A DNA stretch of 64,000 bases from NCBI GenBank assembly GCA_963777315.1, contig CAVZQC010000001.1, positions 32,001-96,000 on the forward strand, in the 5' to 3' direction. This DNA comes from Vulcanimicrobiota bacterium. Its GTDB lineage: Bacteria; Vulcanimicrobiota; Vulcanimicrobiia; Vulcanimicrobiales; Vulcanimicrobiaceae. How positions within the stretch are numbered: the first letter of the stretch is position 1; each line of letters begins with the position of its first letter. The position numbers and the translations under genes are program-made. The notes beneath the pieces are model-generated. The model had not been told where the DNA came from. It ran no database searches and worked only from the letters and a program-made list of their open reading frames with translations. Shown one piece after another: positions 17,679-25,621 of this stretch.

Positions 17679-18022
17679 GAGTGACCGGTCGCGGCTTCGC
17701 GATACCCCTCGCGTCGAGCATCCGCGGGACACAGATACCGGCCGCGCTTGGTGCGACCGTAGTACGGATCTCCGGCCACGTGGTACACCTTGGTGCGTTC
17801 GTTGACCCAGACCGGCTGCGCGCCGCTGCAATCGACCGTGGTAGGTACCGGCGCAAGCGAAGCGGCCGGGATTGCTCCGCGCTGCTCGCGGCTCTCCGCG
17901 CGGCCGGGGAAAGACGCGACCGGCGCGGCCGAAACGACGCCGCCCGCTCGAGTCGATGCCTTCTGACCGCAGCCGATCGTAAGGAGCACGGCTGCGGCGC
18001 ATAGTGCGATGCGATAATTCAT
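17669..18022 (-). CDS. Hypothetical lipoprotein
   Basis: Lipobox-like LLTIGC; C-terminal VWVNERTKVYH...YYGRTKRGRYLC domain; start overlaps the upstream gene's stop. Confidence 0.65.
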   Translation of the reverse strand: MNYRIALCAAAVLLTIGCGQKASTRAGGVVSAAPVASFPGRAESREQRGAIPAASLAPVPTTVDCSGAQPVWVNERTKVYHVAGDPYYGRTKRGRYLCPADARREGYREAATGHSYR

Positions 18023-19305
18023 AAACGCAGGTTCGGCAGAGTGCGCGCGAGTGCTTTTCGCGCCTGTTCGGGCGCCGATTGCCCCGCGATGCGCACGCAG
18101 CGTGCCCCAACGTACGTCTCGAGAATCCACGCGTTTTCCGCCCGGTACACCAGCGCGTTCGCGGCCGGAGTCCACGGGTCCATGCCGGCTGCGTCCACCA
18201 CGACGTAGTCCGCGTATGTGCCGCGCCGAAGCTCGCCCGCGTCCACATCCAGCGCGGCAGCGCCTTGCGACGTGCCCAAAGCCAGCGCCGTCGATGCGCC
18301 CAAAGCGCTTCCGTCCCGCCGTGAAACCTTTTGGAGCAGCGAGGCCGCGCGCATTTCGTCGAGCAGCGAAGGTTTGACGTCGGCATCCGTGCCCAGCGCC
18401 ATTCGAACGCCGCGCGCCTGCAGGCCCGTCACATCGCAGATTCCGTCTCCTAGATACTGGTTGGTCGTCGGATTGTGCACGACGCGCGCGCCGGTTTGCG
18501 CAACGAGATCCTTTTCGGCGTCCGAGACGTAAATCGCATGAACGGCAATCGTGCGTTCGTTCAGCGCCTCCAGCTCGTGCAGCAGCGCGACCGGCGTCAG
18601 TCCGAACCGCACGAGCGTCTGCTCTGCTTCGTACTGCGCTTCGGCGACGTGAACGTGCATCATGCAGCGCGCGCCGGCAGCAAACTTCGCCGCCGCCGCG
18701 ATCATCTCGCCGGAGGCTGCGTGCAGCGAATGGGGCGCTACGCAAATCTGCACGCCGGGAAATTCGTCCATCAACTCGCGGGTGCGTGAGGCCGCCCGAT
18801 CGATAGACTCGCGGAACGCCGGCGGTGCGTAATCGGCGTCCATCCACGTGCGTGCAAACACCAGCCGAATGCCGGCATCGTGCGCGGCTCGAATCGCTTC
18901 GCGAGCGCTGTCGTTGCCGGCACCGTTGAGATAAAAAAACTCTGCCACGGTGGTGATGCCGCCTGCGAGCATTTCGTCAAAGGCGAGGCGGAAAGTCCAA
19001 TACACCTGCTCGGGCGTGAGCTGCGGAACGATTTTGTAGAGCGCTTCGCTGCGCCAGCGCTCGAAGGTGAGATCGTCGGCCCAGCCTCGCAGCAGAATTT
19101 GGTACGCGTGGCTGTGCCCGTTTACGAACCCCGGCGCAACGAGCACGCGGGTTCCATATTCTCGGACCGGCGCATCCGGAAAGCGTCCGCGTACGTCGTC
19201 GAAGGGGCCGGCGTCGGCAAAGCGTTCGCCTTCGATCGCGAGTGCGAAGTCGCTGCGCTCTTGTGAACCTACCAGCGCGCGCGCGCAGCGCACGATGGCG
19301 GTCAT
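18019..19305 (-). CDS. hutF: Amidohydrolase, probable formimidoylglutamate deiminase
   Basis: PGFVNGHSHAYQILLRG, EMLAGGITTVAEFFY, HVHVAE, LGDG, LGTD; coupled to hutI. Confidence 0.75.
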   Translation of the reverse strand: MTAIVRCARALVGSQERSDFALAIEGERFADAGPFDDVRGRFPDAPVREYGTRVLVAPGFVNGHSHAYQILLRGWADDLTFERWRSEALYKIVPQLTPEQVYWTFRLAFDEMLAGGITTVAEFFYLNGAGNDSAREAIRAAHDAGIRLVFARTWMDADYAPPAFRESIDRAASRTRELMDEFPGVQICVAPHSLHAASGEMIAAAAKFAAGARCMMHVHVAEAQYEAEQTLVRFGLTPVALLHELEALNERTIAVHAIYVSDAEKDLVAQTGARVVHNPTTNQYLGDGICDVTGLQARGVRMALGTDADVKPSLLDEMRAASLLQKVSRRDGSALGASTALALGTSQGAAALDVDAGELRRGTYADYVVVDAAGMDPWTPAANALVYRAENAWILETYVGARCVRIAGQSAPEQARKALARTLPNLRL

Positions 19306-20516
19306 GCGGCGCGAACTCCGTTTCTGAAGACGGCCGCTGCCAGATTGCCTCCGAACTGCCAGCCGAACTCGTGCGGCGAGCCGATGTCCAGCGCGACGAA
19401 GTCGGCGCGCGCGCCCGTTCGCAGCGTACCGGCGTCGCGCCGCAGCGAGCGCGCAGCGGAACGCGTAACGGCGAACAGCGCTTCGGGTGCGGACATGCCG
19501 AACATCCGGCGTCCGAAATATGCAACCGTTTGCAGATTGAAGCACGGCGACGTGCCGGGATTGTAATCGCTCGCCAGCGCGACGCTCCCGCCGCGGTCGA
19601 GCACTTCCCGCACCGGCGCTTGCTGCGGTAAAGCCAGATATTCTATCGTCGCGGGACACGCGACCAAGACGATGTCTGCCCGGACGATCGCCTGCACGTC
19701 GCTATCGCGCGCGTAGTTGCAGTGATCGACCGCATCGACTCGCAGTGCGGCGGCCATCTCCACGGCTCCACCCCACGACATCTCGTCGCAGTGCACGCGC
19801 AGCCGCATCCCGTTATCTCGCGCCGCCTGCAGGTAACGCTGCGTGTGAACGGGCGAAAAGAATCCCGGCTCGCAGAAGGCGTCCGCATACACTGCCCCGT
19901 GAGCTTTTGCAACCGGAATGCACTGATCGATCAGGTAATCCACGTAAGCGGCTTCATCGTTGAATTCGGGCGGCAGCGCGTGCGCTCCCAAAAACGTGGC
20001 GACGAGCTGCGGTAGGCGCTGCCGATCGCAATGCGTGCGAATCAGGTGCAGCAACTCCATTTCCCCCGGCTTGTGCAGGGCGTATCCGGTCTTGGTTTCC
20101 AGGGTCGTGGTGCCGTGCGCGAGCATCGTGGCAAGGCGCGCTTCAACGTGCTGCCAGAACGCCTGCGGATGCTCGAGCGCCTTGCGTGTCTGCTCGACGG
20201 TGTACAGCATCCCCAGCGGCGCCTTTTCGCCACGCTGCCTGGCGGCGAAGTCGGGCTCGCGATCGCCGGCGAACAGCGGGTGCGCGTGCGCATCGACCAA
20301 TCCCGGCACGATGGTGCAGTCCGCAAACTCGTGAAGGTCTTCTGCGCTGCGGTACTGCGCGGGCAGGTCGTCGACCGGACCGGTCCACGCGACGACGGCG
20401 TCTTCGCACACGACCGCCGCGTCGGCAACTGCACCCATGGCTTCGAACGTCACGCCGCATTGGGCGACGTCGAACGCATTCGGAACGACCGTTTTCGCTC
20501 TGGCTACAACCGCCAA
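19302..20516 (-). CDS. hutI: Imidazolonepropionase
   Basis: [52 protein letters not shown] start is inferred. Confidence 0.92.
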
Positions 20517-22159
20517 TCGATGCCTTTCGCATCGGCCGTTTCGATCGCGATGTCGTAGCCGGCATCGGCGTGCCGCACGACGCCCATGCCGCAATCCGTG
20601 GTCAGCACGCACTCCAGCCGTTCGCGCGCGTCGTCGGTCCCGTCGGCAACTACGACCATGCCGGCGTGCAGACTGTAACCGATGCCGACGCCGCCGCCGT
20701 GATGCACTGAAACCCAATGCGCGCCGGCGGCGGTATTGAGCAGCGCGTTGAGGATCGGCCAGTCCGCGATGGCGTCGCTTCCGTCTTTCATCGCCTCGGT
20801 CTCCCGGTACGGCGAGGCGACGCTGCCGGTATCGAGATGATCGCGGCCGATGACGATCGGCGCCTGCAATTCGCCGCTGCGTACCAGTTCGTTAAAGCGC
20901 AATCCCGCTTTGGCGCGGTCGCCGTAGCCCAGCCAGCAGATGCGCGCGGGCAACCCTTGAAACGACACGCGCTCTTGCGCGAGCCTGATCCAGCGGCACA
21001 GCCGTTCGTCGTGCGCAAATAGCTCGAGCAGTTCTTTGTCGCAGCGCGCGATGTCCGACGGATCGCCCGAGAGCGCGGCAAAACGAAACGGGCCGCTGCC
21101 TTTGCAAAAGAGCGGCCGAATAAACGCGGGAACGAAACCGGGAAAATCGAACGCACGCGCCACGCCGGCGCGCTGCGCCTGAGCGCGAATGTTGTTTCCG
21201 TAGTCGAAAACCACCGCGCCGGCATCCAAAAAGTCGAGCATTGCCGCAACGTGCTTTGCCACGGTCGCCAAACCACGCCGCTCGTATTCCTGCGGGTCGC
21301 TCTGCCGAAGACGCGCGGCTTGCTCCAGCGACAAATCCATCGGTACGTAGCCGTCTATCATGTCGTGCGCGGAAGTTTGGTCCGTCACGGCGTCGGGACG
21401 CAAACCCAGCTCGTACAGCGCCGGAAATTCCACGCCGGCGTTGCCTTCGTATCCGACCGACAACGCCTGCCCGTCGCGCCTTGCGCGTTCGGCCAAATCG
21501 AGCGCCTCCGGGCGAGAAGCCGCCACGACGTCGAGATAGCGCAGTTCGCACCGGCGCTGCAGGCGGGCGGGATCGACGTCGACGACCAGCGCCACGCCAT
21601 GGTTCATCGTGATTGCCAGCGGCTGCGCGCCGCCCATACCTCCGATGCCTGCGGTCAAGCACAGCCGGCCCTTGAGCGATCCACCGAAGTGCGCGCGCGC
21701 CAGTTCGGCAAATGTCTCGTACGTGCCCTGTACGATGCCTTGCGTGCCGATGTATATCCACGAGCCCGCAGTCATTTGACCGTACATCGTGAGCCCTTGC
21801 GCCTCCAGCTCGCGAAACGTCTTCCAGTCGGCCCATTTGGGGACGAGATTCGAATTCGCAATCAGCACCCGGGGCGCGCGCGCGTGCGTCTTCCACACGG
21901 CCACCGGCTTGCCGCTCTGCACGATCAGCGTCTCGTCACTGCCCAAACGTCTGAGGGTGCGAACGATCGCGTCGAATGCGCCCCACGAGCGCGCGGCTCG
22001 CCCGTTGCCCCCGTACACCACGAGATCGTCCGGACGCTCTGCGACCTGCGGATCCAGATTGTTCATCAGCATGCGCAATGCAGCTTCCTGGGGCCAGCCG
22101 CGGCATGAAATCTCGGTTCCGCGCGGAGCGCGCACGCACGGGCGTGCCGCCGTGCTCAC
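20504..22159 (-). CDS. hutU: Urocanate hydratase
   Basis: [52 protein letters not shown] overlap with hutH. Confidence 0.97.
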
Positions 22160-23703
22160 ACCAGCGCCTCGTCGATACTGCGTTCGGCGGCGTGCACCAT
22201 TGCGCCGGTCGCAATGAGTTCGCGCGCCGCGCTGATGTCGGCGCTCGACGATCGATCGTCGGTCCAGGGCGCGATGCGTTCGCGCGCGCAATCGTACGCC
22301 GCCTGCGTTCCCGTTCCCGAACGCAGTGGACGGCGAAAATCGGTGGCGACCAGCGCCCCGAGCAGCTCGCACGCGAGCGAGCCTTCAACGTTTTGCAGCA
22401 CGCGATCCAAGTTCACCGCCGCGGTCAGCCCCATGCTCACGTGATCTTCCTGGCCGGCGGAGGTCGGAATCGAGTCGACGCTGTTCGGCCACGCCAAGCC
22501 TTTGTTTTCCGATACCATCGCTGCCGACGTGTACTGGACGATCATCAGCCCGGATTGCAGCCCCGAACGCCCCGTCAAAAACAATGGCAAACCACGCTCT
22601 TCGGCGTTGAGCAGCAGATACAGCCGCCGTTCGCTGATGCCGGCCAACTCGGCCAGCGACATCTTGAGCAAATCGCACGCGAGCGCGATCGGCTGCCCGT
22701 GAAAATTTCCGCCGGTCAGAAATACGCCGTCTTCGGGAAACACCAGCGGATTGTCCGTAACGGATATCGCTTCGATTTCGATTACGCCCCGAGCGTGCGA
22801 TGCCGCGTCGCGGACCGCGCCGTGCACCACCGGAATGCAGCGGTACGAGTACGGATCCTGAACGCGGCCGCACTCGCGATGCGATTCGACGATCTGCGAT
22901 CCGTGCAGCAGCGCGCGAAGATTGTCCGCGACCCGGGACTGGCCGGGATGCGGGCGTAAATCGTTGATGCGCCGGTCGAACACCCGATCGGTTCCGAGAA
23001 ACGCCTCGAGCGACATCGCGCCGATGATGTCGGCAGCTGCCAGCAGCCGCTCCGCGCGCAGCAAGCACAGCGCCGCGATGCCGGTCATCACTTCGGTCCC
23101 GTTGACCAGGGCCAAGCCCTCTTTTGCGCCCAGCGTAATCGGCGTCAGGCCCGCGAGTTGCAGCGCCCGCGCGCTGCTCATGCGCTCGCCGCGATAGAAC
23201 GCTTCCCCCTCGCCGATCAACGTGAGCGTCATGTGCGCCAAGGGCGCCAGATCGCCGCTGGCGCCGACCGAACCCTGGCGCGGCACCAGCGGCGTTACGC
23301 CGCGATTGAGCAGTTCGGTCAGCAAATCCAGCGTGCTTTCGCGAATACCCGAATGGCCCGCAGCCAGCGAGCTCACCCGCAGCACTCCGGCGGCGCGTAC
23401 GAACTCACGCGGCAGCGGTTCGCCCGTTCCGGCCGCGTGGCTGCGCACCAGATTCAGCTGCAGCTGGGCGGCGTCTTTGGGATCTATCCGCACGTTCGCC
23501 AAGCGGCCGAATCCCGTCGTGATGCCGTATATCGCATCTCCCATGCCGAACTTCTCTTCGACCAGGCGCCGCGCGGCCGCCACGCGAGCACGCGCGGATT
23601 CCGTGACGCGGACGACCGCTCCATCTTCGGCGATCGCTCGAATCGCCTCGAGGGGCAGGTGCCGGCCGTCCAGGTCGACCGCCGGCAGCGCAGTTGCCGT
23701 CAT
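22156..23703 (-). CDS. hutH: Histidine ammonia-lyase
   Basis: [21 protein letters not shown] (MIO), [30 protein letters not shown]. Confidence 0.96.
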
Positions 23704-23737
23704 GCGTTCGTACTTCCGGCCAAGGCGTTTGCAGCCT

Positions 23738-24260
23738 TCAGAGCGAGCTCCAGTCGGCGCGCCGCGGCCTCGCGTACGGCGGTCCGCTCTGAATGACGAT
23801 CTCTTCGTGGTCGCGCAGCGGAATAGCACGCGGGTCGCGCGTCCACGCAGTGCCGTTGACCGTCGCGCGCAGCGCACGCCCGGCGCGAGCACGCACGCCG
23901 TCGGCCTGCCGATGGTTGAGTTCGCGGTCCCAAATGTCAAAGAACTGCCCGAGCGTAAACGTACGGTTCACCGGCGCTTCGATGTGAATGATTCCGTCGT
24001 CGTCGTGCGTGTGCACCCAGTATAAACAGCCGGCGCCGGCGGGTATGCCGACTTGAGCGGGAATATGGATCGCGCGTCCACGGTCGAACAGACTGAAGAT
24101 GCGTATGCACGTGCACCACCGCGCCTTCCGAGACGTCGCACCGGATGCCGTCGATGGCCAGGCCGGCCAGCATGTTCTGGGCGACGGCCGGCAGCGGCGC
24201 CGCGTTCGCAAGCAATGGTGCCGCCATGCACAGCGCAACGGCGGTTCGCAAATTCAACAT
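23738..24260 (-). CDS. Exported His-motif hypothetical protein; apparent +1 frameshift near 24095
   Basis: Signal peptide plus IDGIRCD...HVHTHL in one frame, continuing SLFD...CLYWVHTHDDDGIIHIEAP...TLGQFFDIW in another. Confidence 0.7.
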
Positions 24261-24270
24261 GGGACCTCGC

Positions 24271-24321
24271 GGTGGATACGGTGTGTATAACAGATAATTA
24301 TTGTGGAAACGCTGTGAGTAG
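24271..24321. promoter_or_regulatory. Cluster of four co-oriented DnaA-box-like 9-mers
   Basis: GGTGGATAC 24271, TGTGTATAA 24282 (exact match to TTWTNCACA), TGTGGAAAC 24302, TGTGAGTAG 24313; AT-rich spacer CAGATAATTAT. Confidence 0.55.
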
Positions 24322-24334
24322 CGATTGCGCCCTC

Positions 24335-24363
24335 TTGCTACGACTTTTGCGCGATGATACCAT
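24335..24363 (+). promoter_or_regulatory. Sigma70-type promoter
   Basis: TTGCTA-17 nt-TACCAT with extended -10 TG; no convincing + strand CDS downstream. Confidence 0.65.
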
Positions 24364-24368
24364 TCAAA

Positions 24369-24572
24369 AACTTCGATAAAACGAAGGGCGATGAACGTAT
24401 AGTCGCGATCGGACCATGTTGACGATGCAGTCGCAACGTCGGCGATCCGAGTGGGCCGATCGAACCGTCGAGCGGCGTCAGTAGGGCTTCTTCACCGGAG
24501 CCAAACAGGCGAAATCGATGCGTGAATACGTCGAAAGCCTCGGGCTCGTTCCGGGGCTTTCGTTTGCGTTTT
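24369..24572 (+). ncRNA. Candidate ~200-nt structured non-coding RNA, family unassigned
   Basis: Bounded by promoter and terminator; five stems found by eye, with G-U pairs that favour the + strand. Confidence 0.55.
24532..24572 (+). terminator. Intrinsic terminator, possibly also used by the convergent WYL gene
   Basis: CGAAAGCCTCGG / CCGGGGCTTTCG 12-bp stem followed by TTTGCGTTTT. Confidence 0.75.
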
Positions 24573-24580
24573 CGAACCTC

Positions 24581-25621
24581 TTATTTCGAGACCGGCAGTT
24601 CGTACTTGGCGGCGATTTGCGCGATCAGCATGCGAACGCGCGAGCGAACGTCTTCAGGCGCGATGACCTCGGCCTGCGCCCCCCATCCCAGCACCCAGCG
24701 CGCGAGTTCGTCCACGTCTGCGACGTTGTACGCGATCTCCACCGAACCGTCGGCGCGGCGTTCGACGGCGCGCTCGGCAACCACGCGCGCGGCGACGGCG
24801 GCTTTGGCGACGCGGGCCGCAAAACGAACGCGCACTTCGCTCGTTCGATCGCTGTGCAGTACGCCGCTGATCGAAGTCGAGGCGAAATCTGCGATGCTGA
24901 AGTCCGAGGGCTTGGTGTACGTTTGCCCGAGCACCGTCACGTCGGACATGCTGTCCACGGCAAACACGCGCTTGTCGCGGCGAGCGTGATCGTACGCGAC
25001 GCAATATACGCGGCCGCCGTTGACGATGAAGCCATAGGGGTCGGCATTTCGCTTGGAACGGTTGCCTTCTTTGTCCTGATACGTGAACGAGACGCAGCGC
25101 GTGCTGCGCTCGGCGGCGGAAAGCATTCCGAAGATGCGTTCCCCCTGTTCGTCCAAGGTGATCTCGCTCAGACGAAACGCGACGTTGGGGCGAGCCTGCA
25201 TGCGTTCTTTGGCGCCGCTTCCGCTCGAACCGACGATCTTTGCGGTGACTTCATCGACGTAGGTTCCGATCGCGCCGCCCAAACTCGCGCTGATGGCGCG
25301 CAGCGCCACCAAACCGAACAGTTCGCCCGAGCTCAGCTCCATACGCTTGAGGCTGTAGCCTTCGGAAAACCGGTACGTGTTCGTGCCGCGATCGAAGTAC
25401 CACGGGAAACCCGCTTCCGCCAGCACCGCCAGATACCGGCGTAGGCTTCGCGTGCTGGGACGGTGTTCGCCCTCGGAGATACGGTCTTTGAGCCGCTCGA
25501 ACGAAAAGCGCCCCTCGTCGATGGCGTTGAGAAGCCTGACGAGCAAGACGATTTTCGGCTCATTGGTACGTTCTACGGTAGGTCTCCCAAAGCTTGGAAA
25601 GTCTTGCCGTAATTGTGCCAC
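24581..25621 (-). CDS. HTH-WYL-WCX transcriptional regulator (PafBC/DriD-like architecture)
   Basis: wHTH STRSLRRYLAVLAEAGFP; WYL domain VSFTY...RNADPYGF...YCVAYD...RVFAVD; WCX ELARWVLGWGAQAEVIAPEDVR. Confidence 0.9.
   Translation of the reverse strand: MAQLRQDFPSFGRPTVERTNEPKIVLLVRLLNAIDEGRFSFERLKDRISEGEHRPSTRSLRRYLAVLAEAGFPWYFDRGTNTYRFSEGYSLKRMELSSGELFGLVALRAISASLGGAIGTYVDEVTAKIVGSSGSGAKERMQARPNVAFRLSEITLDEQGERIFGMLSAAERSTRCVSFTYQDKEGNRSKRNADPYGFIVNGGRVYCVAYDHARRDKRVFAVDSMSDVTVLGQTYTKPSDFSIADFASTSISGVLHSDRTSEVRVRFAARVAKAAVAARVVAERAVERRADGSVEIAYNVADVDELARWVLGWGAQAEVIAPEDVRSRVRMLIAQIAAKYELPVSK

What the first reader, a model, noticed from the sequence alone, without database searches (positions are those of the whole stretch)
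24335..25621. Stand-alone ~200-nt structured RNA gene convergent with a WYL regulator
Seen: promoter TTGCTA-17-TACCAT (24335-24363, extended -10). Stems follow: CTTCG/CGAAG (24371/24382); a long stem CGATCGG/CCGATCG (24406/24456) enclosing GTTGACG/CGTCGGC (24418/24437); CCG/CGG; CGTC..GGCTTC/GGAGCC..GGCG (24476-24511); TCGATG/CGTCGA (24515/24529); and a 12-bp terminator with T-tract ending 9 nt from the WYL stop. G-U pairs favour the + strand, and only tiny ORFs lie fully inside (largest 22 aa, 24416-24484). It lacks tRNA, tmRNA, SRP and RNase P signatures. Known: WYL domains (PafBC, DriD) sense nucleic acids. Inference: an unassigned ncRNA that may form a module with the WYL protein. Landmarks GUUGA, GAUGC-AGUCGCA, CGAUCC, AGUAG and CAGGCGA recall, from memory only, the raiA motif RNA.
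Basis: partly seen in the sequence, partly recalled or inferred. Interest (0 to 1): 0.85.

Follow-up and report, generated by a model that had tools for sequence, protein, structure and literature searches.

The report
New folded RNA behind DnaA boxes
A soil-bacterium genome carries a small, tightly folded RNA gene of an undescribed family, found across one bacterial order, whose promoter bears binding sites typical of the DNA-replication initiator and which usually sits next to an unusual regulator gene.

Summary
The RNA gene is real: promoter 24335-24363, RNA about 24369-24570, terminator 24532-24572. It matches no Rfam 15 family and is not raiA. The genome has tmRNA, RNase P, SRP and a 6S-like gene elsewhere. 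Relatives show an order-wide family in Vulcanimicrobiota: 109 of 121 and 3 of 3 genomes in the order's two families, 0 of 26 in the class's third family, with 1-4 diverged copies each. Covariation supports two 5' hairpins and a pseudoknot between the second loop and the 3' end; the interior arms vary. New here: a phased, one-strand array of DnaA-box-like sites upstream (62 of 73 promoters, 0 of 73 reversed), also seen upstream of minC. A copy lies within 10 kb of the WYL gene in 68 of 72 genomes, but 46 of 123 copies are unlinked. That WYL lacks both arginines PafB needs for ssDNA binding (65 of 65 fragments). Best reading: a DnaA-controlled, trans-acting, protein-binding RNA; WYL as its partner is plausible (about 0.3) and unshown. 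Expression was not tested.

The parts
24271..24321 (+). Array of four DnaA-box-like 9-mers, same orientation, spaced 11, 20 and 11 bp: GGTGGATAC 24271, TGTGTATAA 24282 (exact TGTGNATAA), TGTGGAAAC 24302, TGTGAGTAG 24313
   Evidence: one of only 10 exact boxes in the 2.83-Mb genome
24335..24363 (+). sigma70-type promoter: TTGCTA, 17 nt, extended -10 TG-A-TACCAT
   Evidence: conserved columns; not called by the strict scan
24369..24570 (+). The RNA, about 200 nt with terminator; start inferred 6-7 nt after the -10 box
   Evidence: ends inferred, not measured
24371..24386 (+). Hairpin P0, CUUCG/CGAAG, variable loop
   Evidence: UA to GC change on both sides in 14 of 38 rows at one pair
24388..24406 (+). 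Hairpin P1, GCGAU/GUCGC; its loop carries the 5' strand of the pseudoknot
24395..24400 (+). Pseudoknot 5' strand ACGUAU (pairs with 24526-24531)
24407..24461 (+). P2 arm: GAUCGG/CCGAUC, CCAU/GUGG, kink-turn-like loop (GUU bulge, tandem G-A/A-G at 24421-22 and 24449-50), GAU/AUC and a variable tip; absent in some copies
   Evidence: tandem GA in 39 of 75; kink-turn consensus is recalled
24466..24520 (+). P4 long-range stem CGUCG/CGAUG enclosing the P6/P5 arm
   Evidence: 24468-24518 mutual information z 10.5
24476..24511 (+). P6/P5 arm: CGUC/GGCG, A-A mismatch, GU/AC, 2x2 purine loop, hairpin GGCUUC/GGAGCC
24526..24531 (+). Pseudoknot 3' strand AUACGU, directly before the terminator
24532..24572 (+). 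Intrinsic terminator, 13 pairs and U-rich tail
24581..25621 (-). Convergent WYL-WCX regulator of the DriD/PafBC type; RVFAVDS in place of RxFRxDR, so both PafB R211/R214-equivalent arginines are missing
   Evidence: PMC11804915 passages
23738..24260 (-). Divergent hypothetical gene, conserved neighbour; split over two frames near 24095 in this assembly, intact in three relatives

Best explanation
An independent, trans-acting structured RNA of a new family. Shown: its own conserved promoter and terminator; a conserved core of two 5' hairpins plus a pseudoknot that ties the second loop to the 3' end; exchangeable interior arms; 1-4 diverged copies per genome, each with its own promoter. Inferred (about 0.75): DnaA binds the phased box array just upstream of -35 and sets transcription, so RNA level follows replication-initiator state. 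The boxes do not overlap -35 or -10, which fits activation at low occupancy, as described for E. coli nrdAB. Inferred (about 0.7): the RNA acts through its fold, by binding a protein, and not by base-pairing to mRNAs or by coding, because the conserved bases lie in stems and the pseudoknot sequence changes freely while its pairing is kept. Inferred (about 0.3): the protein is the neighbouring WYL regulator, whose pocket has lost the ssDNA-binding arginines, so that the RNA is its ligand or decoy and passes replication status on to the WYL regulon.
For: Family and range. Covariation: 89.1% of cells paired against 80.6% shuffled and at most 45.9% slid; 34 of 52 pairs change on both sides, 11 of them in the terminator; P0 and P1 over 38 diverse copies: 91.3%, 7 of 10 pairs; loop-tail pairing score 5.44 against 3.69 +/- 0.10 for shuffled tails, 94 copies; ACGUA/UACGU, ACGUG/CACGU, GCGAGAA/UUCUCGU, GACGGUA/UACCGUC. 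DnaA boxes: 62 of 73 promoters have a box with at most 1 mismatch on the forward strand, 0 of 73 on the reverse, expectation 0.004 per window. Exact boxes in this genome also lie at dnaA and, with the same 20/11 spacing, upstream of minC. WYL link: 68 of 72 genomes within 10 kb, 67 convergent; kept where the hut genes are not adjacent (L101, L080, L084, L103); same order-level range; arginines missing in 65 of 65 orthologue fragments while another WYL of this genome keeps RTFRVDR.
Against: No transcript was seen and no binding was tested. 46 of 123 copies, in 43 genomes, are not within 10 kb of WYL and sit by nadA/nadB, OPT transporter, proline dehydrogenase, HIT or TonB-type genes. Nine of 81 WYL-bearing genomes had no strong RNA hit; one of them (G167) proved to have a diverged copy, the other eight gave none. 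In G013 the RNA and WYL lie about 312 kb apart on one contig. The divergent hypothetical gene is as constant a neighbour as WYL, so gene order alone may explain the linkage, and kin are not independent. Loss of the arginines could equally mean that this WYL binds no nucleic acid; PafBC was not activated by ssRNA (PMC11804915). Only 22 of 73 promoters have an exact box.
Confidence: 0.5

Rival explanations
1. The RNA is real and DnaA-controlled but has nothing to do with WYL: it binds another protein or complex, and the two genes are neighbours only through conserved gene order in this order.
For: 46 of 123 copies unlinked; G013 separated; eight WYL genomes without a hit; the hypothetical gene on the other side is as constant.
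Against: Linkage survives loss of the hut neighbours and insertions of other genes; tandem arrays of 3-4 copies stay within a few kb of WYL in genus g24; the RNA and this WYL subfamily share their range.
Confidence: 0.35
2. The upstream array is not a DnaA-regulated promoter element: it is read by the WYL protein or another factor, or it is a datA/DARS-like site that titrates DnaA and merely sits before the RNA.
For: Boxes B and C are degenerate; the most invariant word is TTGTGG; copies are spread round the chromosome; datA and DARS are clusters of DnaA sites (PMC10532879 passages).
Against: Box A matches TGTGNATAA, the boxes at dnaA have the same sequence, the array keeps a fixed distance to -35 in most copies, including tandem ones, and the same array precedes minC. 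It is not oriC: dnaA and the GC-skew change are on another contig.
Confidence: 0.15
3. A catalytic RNA or a small-molecule-binding RNA working in trans.
For: Compact pseudoknotted fold with conserved non-canonical loops.
Against: Whole arms are deleted or replaced (L008, L085, L111, L119) and few unpaired bases are invariant across the order, which leaves little for an active site.
Confidence: 0.07
4. A diverged raiA motif RNA.
Against: No RF03072 match. raiA is closed by a 5'-3' P1 stem, has its pseudoknot from the P3b loop and is single-copy in Bacillota and Actinomycetota (PMC12968392, PMC10861870). Here the 5' end is a local hairpin, the pseudoknot starts from the second hairpin and copies number 1-4.
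Confidence: 0.04
5. A cis-acting leader (riboswitch or attenuator) or a small-peptide gene.
For: Many second copies lie directly upstream of an OPT transporter gene on the same strand; the P0 3' strand could pair with the terminator's 3' strand.
Against: The window copy and most WYL-linked copies end against a convergent gene; tandem copies have no gene between them; the 22-codon ORF is intact in 5 of 75.
Confidence: 0.04

Closest known systems
raiA motif RNA (ModT; Rfam RF03072)
   Same: About 200 nt, own gene, pseudoknotted, optional peripheral arms, function unknown, thought to act in trans (PMC12968392 parts 1-3, PMC10861870 section 5).
   Different: No model match; no 5'-3' closing P1; different pseudoknot partners; multi-copy; another phylum.
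6S RNA (RF00013)
   Same: Size and stand-alone sigma70 gene with terminator.
   Different: Branched and pseudoknotted, not a rod with a central bubble; this genome has a separate 6S-like gene at C2:535304-535482.
Bacterial Y RNAs (YrlA/YrlB) with Ro60
   Same: Tandem, diverged ncRNA genes near a nucleic-acid-stress regulator (recalled).
   Different: No TROVE gene in this genome and in only 2 of 80 family genomes; no 5'-3' Ro-binding stem.
Protein-sequestering multi-copy sRNAs (CsrB/CsrC, RsmY/RsmZ)
   Same: Several independently transcribed paralogues per genome; proposed mode of action (recalled).
   Different: No repeated GGA loops in the alignments; a single pseudoknotted fold.
DnaA-regulated promoters (E. 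coli nrdAB, dnaA)
   Same: Several DnaA boxes upstream of a promoter (PMC8203912 passages).
   Different: The target is an ncRNA; the words 'sRNA' and 'noncoding' do not occur in that review.
WYL regulators DriD and PafBC
   Same: WYL + WCX architecture; best solved-structure hits at E 9e-16 to 3e-7.
   Different: Both arginines needed for ssDNA binding in PafB are replaced (A; S, N, G or A) throughout the subfamily.

Membership tests
Any Rfam 15 family | Covariance-model score at or above the gathering threshold | tested here: not met
   0 hits in the window; best 9 bits against a threshold of 233; 10 homologous loci gave one unrelated 23-bit hit outside the RNA
raiA motif | Match to RF03072 | tested here: not met
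   0 in own genome at E<=10; 0 of 151 phylum genomes (no control genome rang there, so that search has no positive control)
raiA motif | P1 closes the 5' and 3' ends, with GU and GGU bulges | tested here: not met
   The 5' end forms local hairpins P0 and P1 with covariation; no 5'-3' helix among conserved helices other than the loop pseudoknot
raiA motif | PK1 between the P3b loop and the PK-L linker; highly conserved core nucleotides | tested here: not met
   The look-alike AGUCGCA loop is in 9 of 79 copies, in an arm that L008 and L085 lack
raiA motif | Single locus per genome; Bacillota and Actinomycetota | tested here: not met
   1-4 copies; Vulcanimicrobiota
6S RNA | Long rod with a central bubble; match to a 6S profile | tested here: not met
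   a profile of six family 6S-like genes hits C2:535304-535482 and not the finding
6S RNA | Binds RNA polymerase holoenzyme | not testable with these tools
   needs a pull-down
tmRNA / RNase P RNA / SRP RNA | Family model match | tested here: not met
   Each has its own gene elsewhere in this genome: 118, 259 and 73.5 bits
Y RNA (YrlA/B) | Co-occurs with Ro60 (TROVE) | tested here: not met
DnaA-regulated gene | DnaA-box consensus upstream of the promoter, above chance and conserved | tested here: met
   62 of 73 forward, 0 of 73 reverse, expectation 0.004; array conserved
DnaA-regulated gene | DnaA binds and changes transcription | not testable with these tools
   needs a footprint, ChIP or reporter
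ssDNA-sensing WYL regulators (PafBC, DriD) | WYL + WCX domains | tested here: met
   PF13280 E 2e-17, PF25583 E 4e-15
ssDNA-sensing WYL regulators (PafBC, DriD) | Arginine pair equivalent to PafB R211/R214 | tested here: not met
   Counted from the WYL-motif tyrosine (PafB Y196): +8 R, +12 R, +15 A, +18 S; 65 of 65 fragments; DriD alignment RSWRLDR against RVFAVDS

The most novel reading that the evidence does not exclude
A three-part circuit of a new kind: the replication initiator DnaA drives a pseudoknotted RNA, which is the dedicated ligand of a WYL transcription factor that has traded ssDNA sensing for RNA sensing, so that an RNA messenger reports replication state to a transcriptional regulator, with gene copy number setting the dose.
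Probability: 0.2. Interest if true: 0.9.

Novelty: categorically new. Interest (0 to 1): 0.72.

Why it matters
New classes of structured bacterial RNA of this size are rare, and the known orphan ones (raiA, OLE) still lack a biochemical function. This one comes with two concrete handles: a DnaA-box promoter shared by linked and unlinked copies, and a neighbouring WYL protein with an altered ligand pocket. If DnaA control holds, it ties an ncRNA family to replication initiation; if WYL binding holds, it answers what non-ssDNA ligand a WYL regulator can have. 'Categorically new' is meant at the level of RNA family and regulatory setting: it failed every membership test run, but stand-alone structured RNAs are a known kind of molecule, and its range so far is one order.

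Tried and rejected
Expression: no RNA holder was listed, so no reads were laid; this is no evidence either way. A second pseudoknot GUUGAC/GUCAGU (24418/24482): 93% paired in 22 rows but with one change on both sides, only 37 of 66 and 44 of 65 at two central pairs in 75 rows, and exclusive with the kink-turn and P6; dropped, though it could be an alternative fold in one sublineage. A loop-E reading of the P6 loop: replaced by G-C and U-A pairs (69 of 72 G-C, 72 of 72 pairable). tRNA mimicry: the CGUCAGUNGG word recalls a D arm, but no conserved T-loop hairpin was found, and P0 covaries as a plain stem. oriC: dnaA and the skew change are on contig C2. Other phyla: 5 of 80 pattern loci (Pseudomonadota, Serratia, Opitutaceae, an archaeon, Actinomycetota) did not score; 0 of 121 genomes in the phylum of the Actinomycetota-labelled record; weak R2 hits in other families of the own phylum (E 1e-3 to 5e-6, those listed 60-90 nt long) were taken as box clusters and not examined. 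The divergent neighbour has no Pfam or NCBIfam family and only hypothetical clusters in the atlas. Earlier notes of this scan: none. Print: searches for Eremiobacterota, Vulcanimicrobi or WPS-2 with ncRNA terms, WYL with structured RNA, and DnaA boxes with ncRNA or sRNA listed no description of this RNA; only listings were read for these, apart from one paper.

Full report
1. Observation. The promoter, stems, terminator and convergent WYL gene are at the stated coordinates. The stretch 24369-24570 folds on the + strand with z -3.56 (0 of 200 shuffles as good) against z -1.90 on the - strand (8 of 200). Rfam 15 gives no hit at gathering thresholds in the window and only a 9-bit chance match in the region; ten homologous loci give nothing on the RNA. 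The strict promoter scan does not call the promoter, but its -35 and -10 positions are near-invariant in homologues.

2. The family. BLAST of the region hit 17 of 36 family genomes and 0 of 24 others, several with two or three tandem, diverged copies, each with its own promoter and terminator. A covariance model from 22 copies found 59 of 80 family genomes and 0 of 70 in other families. A promoter-plus-5'-core model from 38 diverse copies found 109 of 121 genomes in the family, 3 of 3 in the other family of the order and 0 of 26 in the third family of the class, with 1-4 matches per genome. These searches use strict filters and score only the best candidates, so misses mean 'not found'. The five that do not score come from other phyla. 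The window is therefore inferred to be from Vulcanimicrobiota. Nothing was found in 121 genomes of another phylum or convincingly in viral contigs.

3. Structure. On 22 copies, 89.1% of cells pair (80.6% shuffled, at most 45.9% slid) and 34 of 52 pairs change on both sides (that structure included the terminator and a second pseudoknot I later dropped). On 75 copies (7 weak, partial or duplicate rows of 82 left out) the top mutual-information pairs are the proposed helices. From 5' to 3': P0 (24371/24386), P1 (24388/24406), the P2 arm (24407/24461) with a kink-turn-like loop in 39 of 75 copies (consensus recalled), P4 (24466/24520) enclosing the P6/P5 arm (24476/24511), then six bases (24526-24531) that pair with the P1 loop (24395-24400), then the terminator. 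P0 and P1 covary across the order (91.3% paired, 7 of 10 pairs changed on both sides). The pseudoknot changes sequence by lineage yet keeps pairing: ACGUA/UACGU, ACGUG/CACGU, GCGAGAA/UUCUCGU, CGUGAGAA/UUCUCACG, GACGGUA/UACCGUC; mean score 5.44 over 94 copies against 3.69 +/- 0.10 for shuffled tails, and 86 of 94 score 4 or more. For 15 divergent copies the loop and tail were located with patterns written by eye, which can favour the result; three further divergent copies seen were not counted. Interior arms are dispensable or replaced (L008, L085, L111, L119). The 22-codon ORF is intact in 5 of 75.

4. Upstream of -35 lies a one-strand array of DnaA-box-like 9-mers (window 24271, 24282, 24302, 24313). 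A box within one mismatch of TGTGNATAA is present on the forward strand in 62 of 73 non-redundant promoters (exact in 22) and on the reverse strand in 0 of 73; the genome expectation is 0.004 per window. WYL-linked, tandem and dispersed copies all carry it. The genome has only 10 exact boxes: this one, two at dnaA, one in an array of the same spacing upstream of minC, one between genes that I read by eye as mutS and miaB, and five others. The E. coli box TTATCCACA and the dual control of nrdAB through three boxes are from PMC8203912 (passages). The locus is not oriC. DnaA binding is inferred, not shown.

5. The WYL link. Among 72 genomes with both a WYL orthologue and a strong RNA hit (E<=1e-7), a copy lies within 1 kb in 53, 3 kb in 66 and 10 kb in 68, convergent in 67; of the four exceptions three are fragmented assemblies and one (G013) is a true separation. 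Linkage persists where hut genes are not adjacent. The orthologue has the same range as the RNA: 78 of 80 and 2 of 2 in the order, none elsewhere in the phylum at E<=1e-30. Against: 46 of 123 copies in 43 genomes are unlinked, next to nadA/nadB, OPT transporter, proline dehydrogenase, HIT or TonB-type genes; eight WYL-bearing genomes have no hit, and in three of them (G031, G088, G143) WYL abuts the next gene directly; the hypothetical gene on the other side is as constant a neighbour; and kin are not independent. The protein is of the DriD/PafBC type. PafB needs R211 and R214 for ssDNA binding (PMC11804915 passages); the equivalent positions here are A and S, and neither is arginine in 65 of 65 orthologue fragments, whereas another WYL of this genome keeps RTFRVDR. 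This subfamily is thus unlikely to sense ssDNA in the PafB way; it may bind something else, or nothing. PafBC itself is not activated by ssRNA.

6. How it most likely works. Shown: a conserved transcription unit and fold, multi-copy, with a box array. Inferred: DnaA sets its level (about 0.75); it acts in trans through its fold on a protein (about 0.7), since conserved bases are in stems, pseudoknot sequence is free while pairing is kept, and most copies have no co-directional downstream gene; the partner is the neighbouring WYL (about 0.3). The rivals are a WYL-independent role (0.35), a non-DnaA or datA-like reading of the array (0.15), a catalytic or ligand-binding RNA (0.07), diverged raiA (0.04) and a cis-leader or peptide gene (0.04).

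7. Comparison. raiA: similar size and orphan status, but no model match, different topology (P1 closure and PK1 as described in PMC12968392, parts 1-3 of 6 read), single-copy and confined to two other phyla (PMC10861870, passages and section 5); the recalled landmarks lie mostly in a variable arm. tmRNA, RNase P and SRP have their own genes. 6S: Rfam misses it in this genome, but relatives have weak hits at separate loci and their profile finds a rod-shaped gene at C2:535304-535482, not the finding. Y RNA: Ro60 is missing here and in 78 of 80 family genomes searched.

8. Limits. No expression data (one search listed no RNA run). Model E-values are rough. Literature searches cover only open-licence papers; no supplements were read, so the raiA alignments and candidate-motif lists outside Rfam could bear on novelty. 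Unpublished genomes: G019 (L009), G021 (L016) and G028 (L010, L026) are rows in the alignments and counts; L010 is the example of a deleted P6 arm and the reference for the frameshift test; G205 counts and G048. No main conclusion depends on them alone.

9. Verdict. A real, previously unassigned RNA family of one bacterial order, with a covarying pseudoknot core and a conserved DnaA-box promoter; the WYL partnership is a testable lead. Interest 0.72.

Noticed in passing
window 23738-24260 (-): The hypothetical gene between hutH and the RNA is split over two frames near 24095; it is intact in L002, L003 and L004, so this is an assembly indel or a recent pseudogene.
   Followed up: yes
G000:C2:315664-315724 (L129): A DnaA-box array with the same 20/11 spacing lies upstream of minC, which suggests DnaA control of division-site selection in this lineage.
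   Followed up: partly
G000:C2:535304-535482 (-): A 6S-like RNA gene that Rfam RF00013 misses was found with a family profile at 116 bits; 6S is unusually diverged in this family (16 of 80 weak hits).
   Followed up: partly
window 24581-25621 (-) and orthologues: An order-wide WYL subfamily lacks both ssDNA-binding arginines (65 of 65 fragments); of interest apart from the RNA.
   Followed up: partly
L381:1521-2857, L380:341-1277, L383:1732-2856: Genus g24 has tandem arrays of 3-4 strongly diverged copies at about 330-570 bp spacing, each with box array, promoter and terminator.
   Followed up: partly
L066, L070, L071, L077, L083, L095, L097: Second copies often sit directly upstream of an OPT oligopeptide transporter gene, in several cases divergent from nadA/nadB.
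   Followed up: partly
G000:C1:138750-139103 (-): ARAGORN reports no tmRNA in this genome although Rfam finds one at 118 bits.
   Followed up: no
window 24418-24424 with 24476-24482: GUUGACG/CGUCAGU can pair in the sublineage near this genome and would exclude the kink-turn and P6; a possible alternative fold, unexplained.
   Followed up: partly
L090:3024-4818: The RNA and the WYL 3' part appear twice in inverted orientation near a contig end in G030, probably an assembly artefact.
   Followed up: no
window 18019-23706 (-): A histidine-utilisation cluster (hutH, hutU, hutI and an amidohydrolase) flanks the locus.
   Followed up: no
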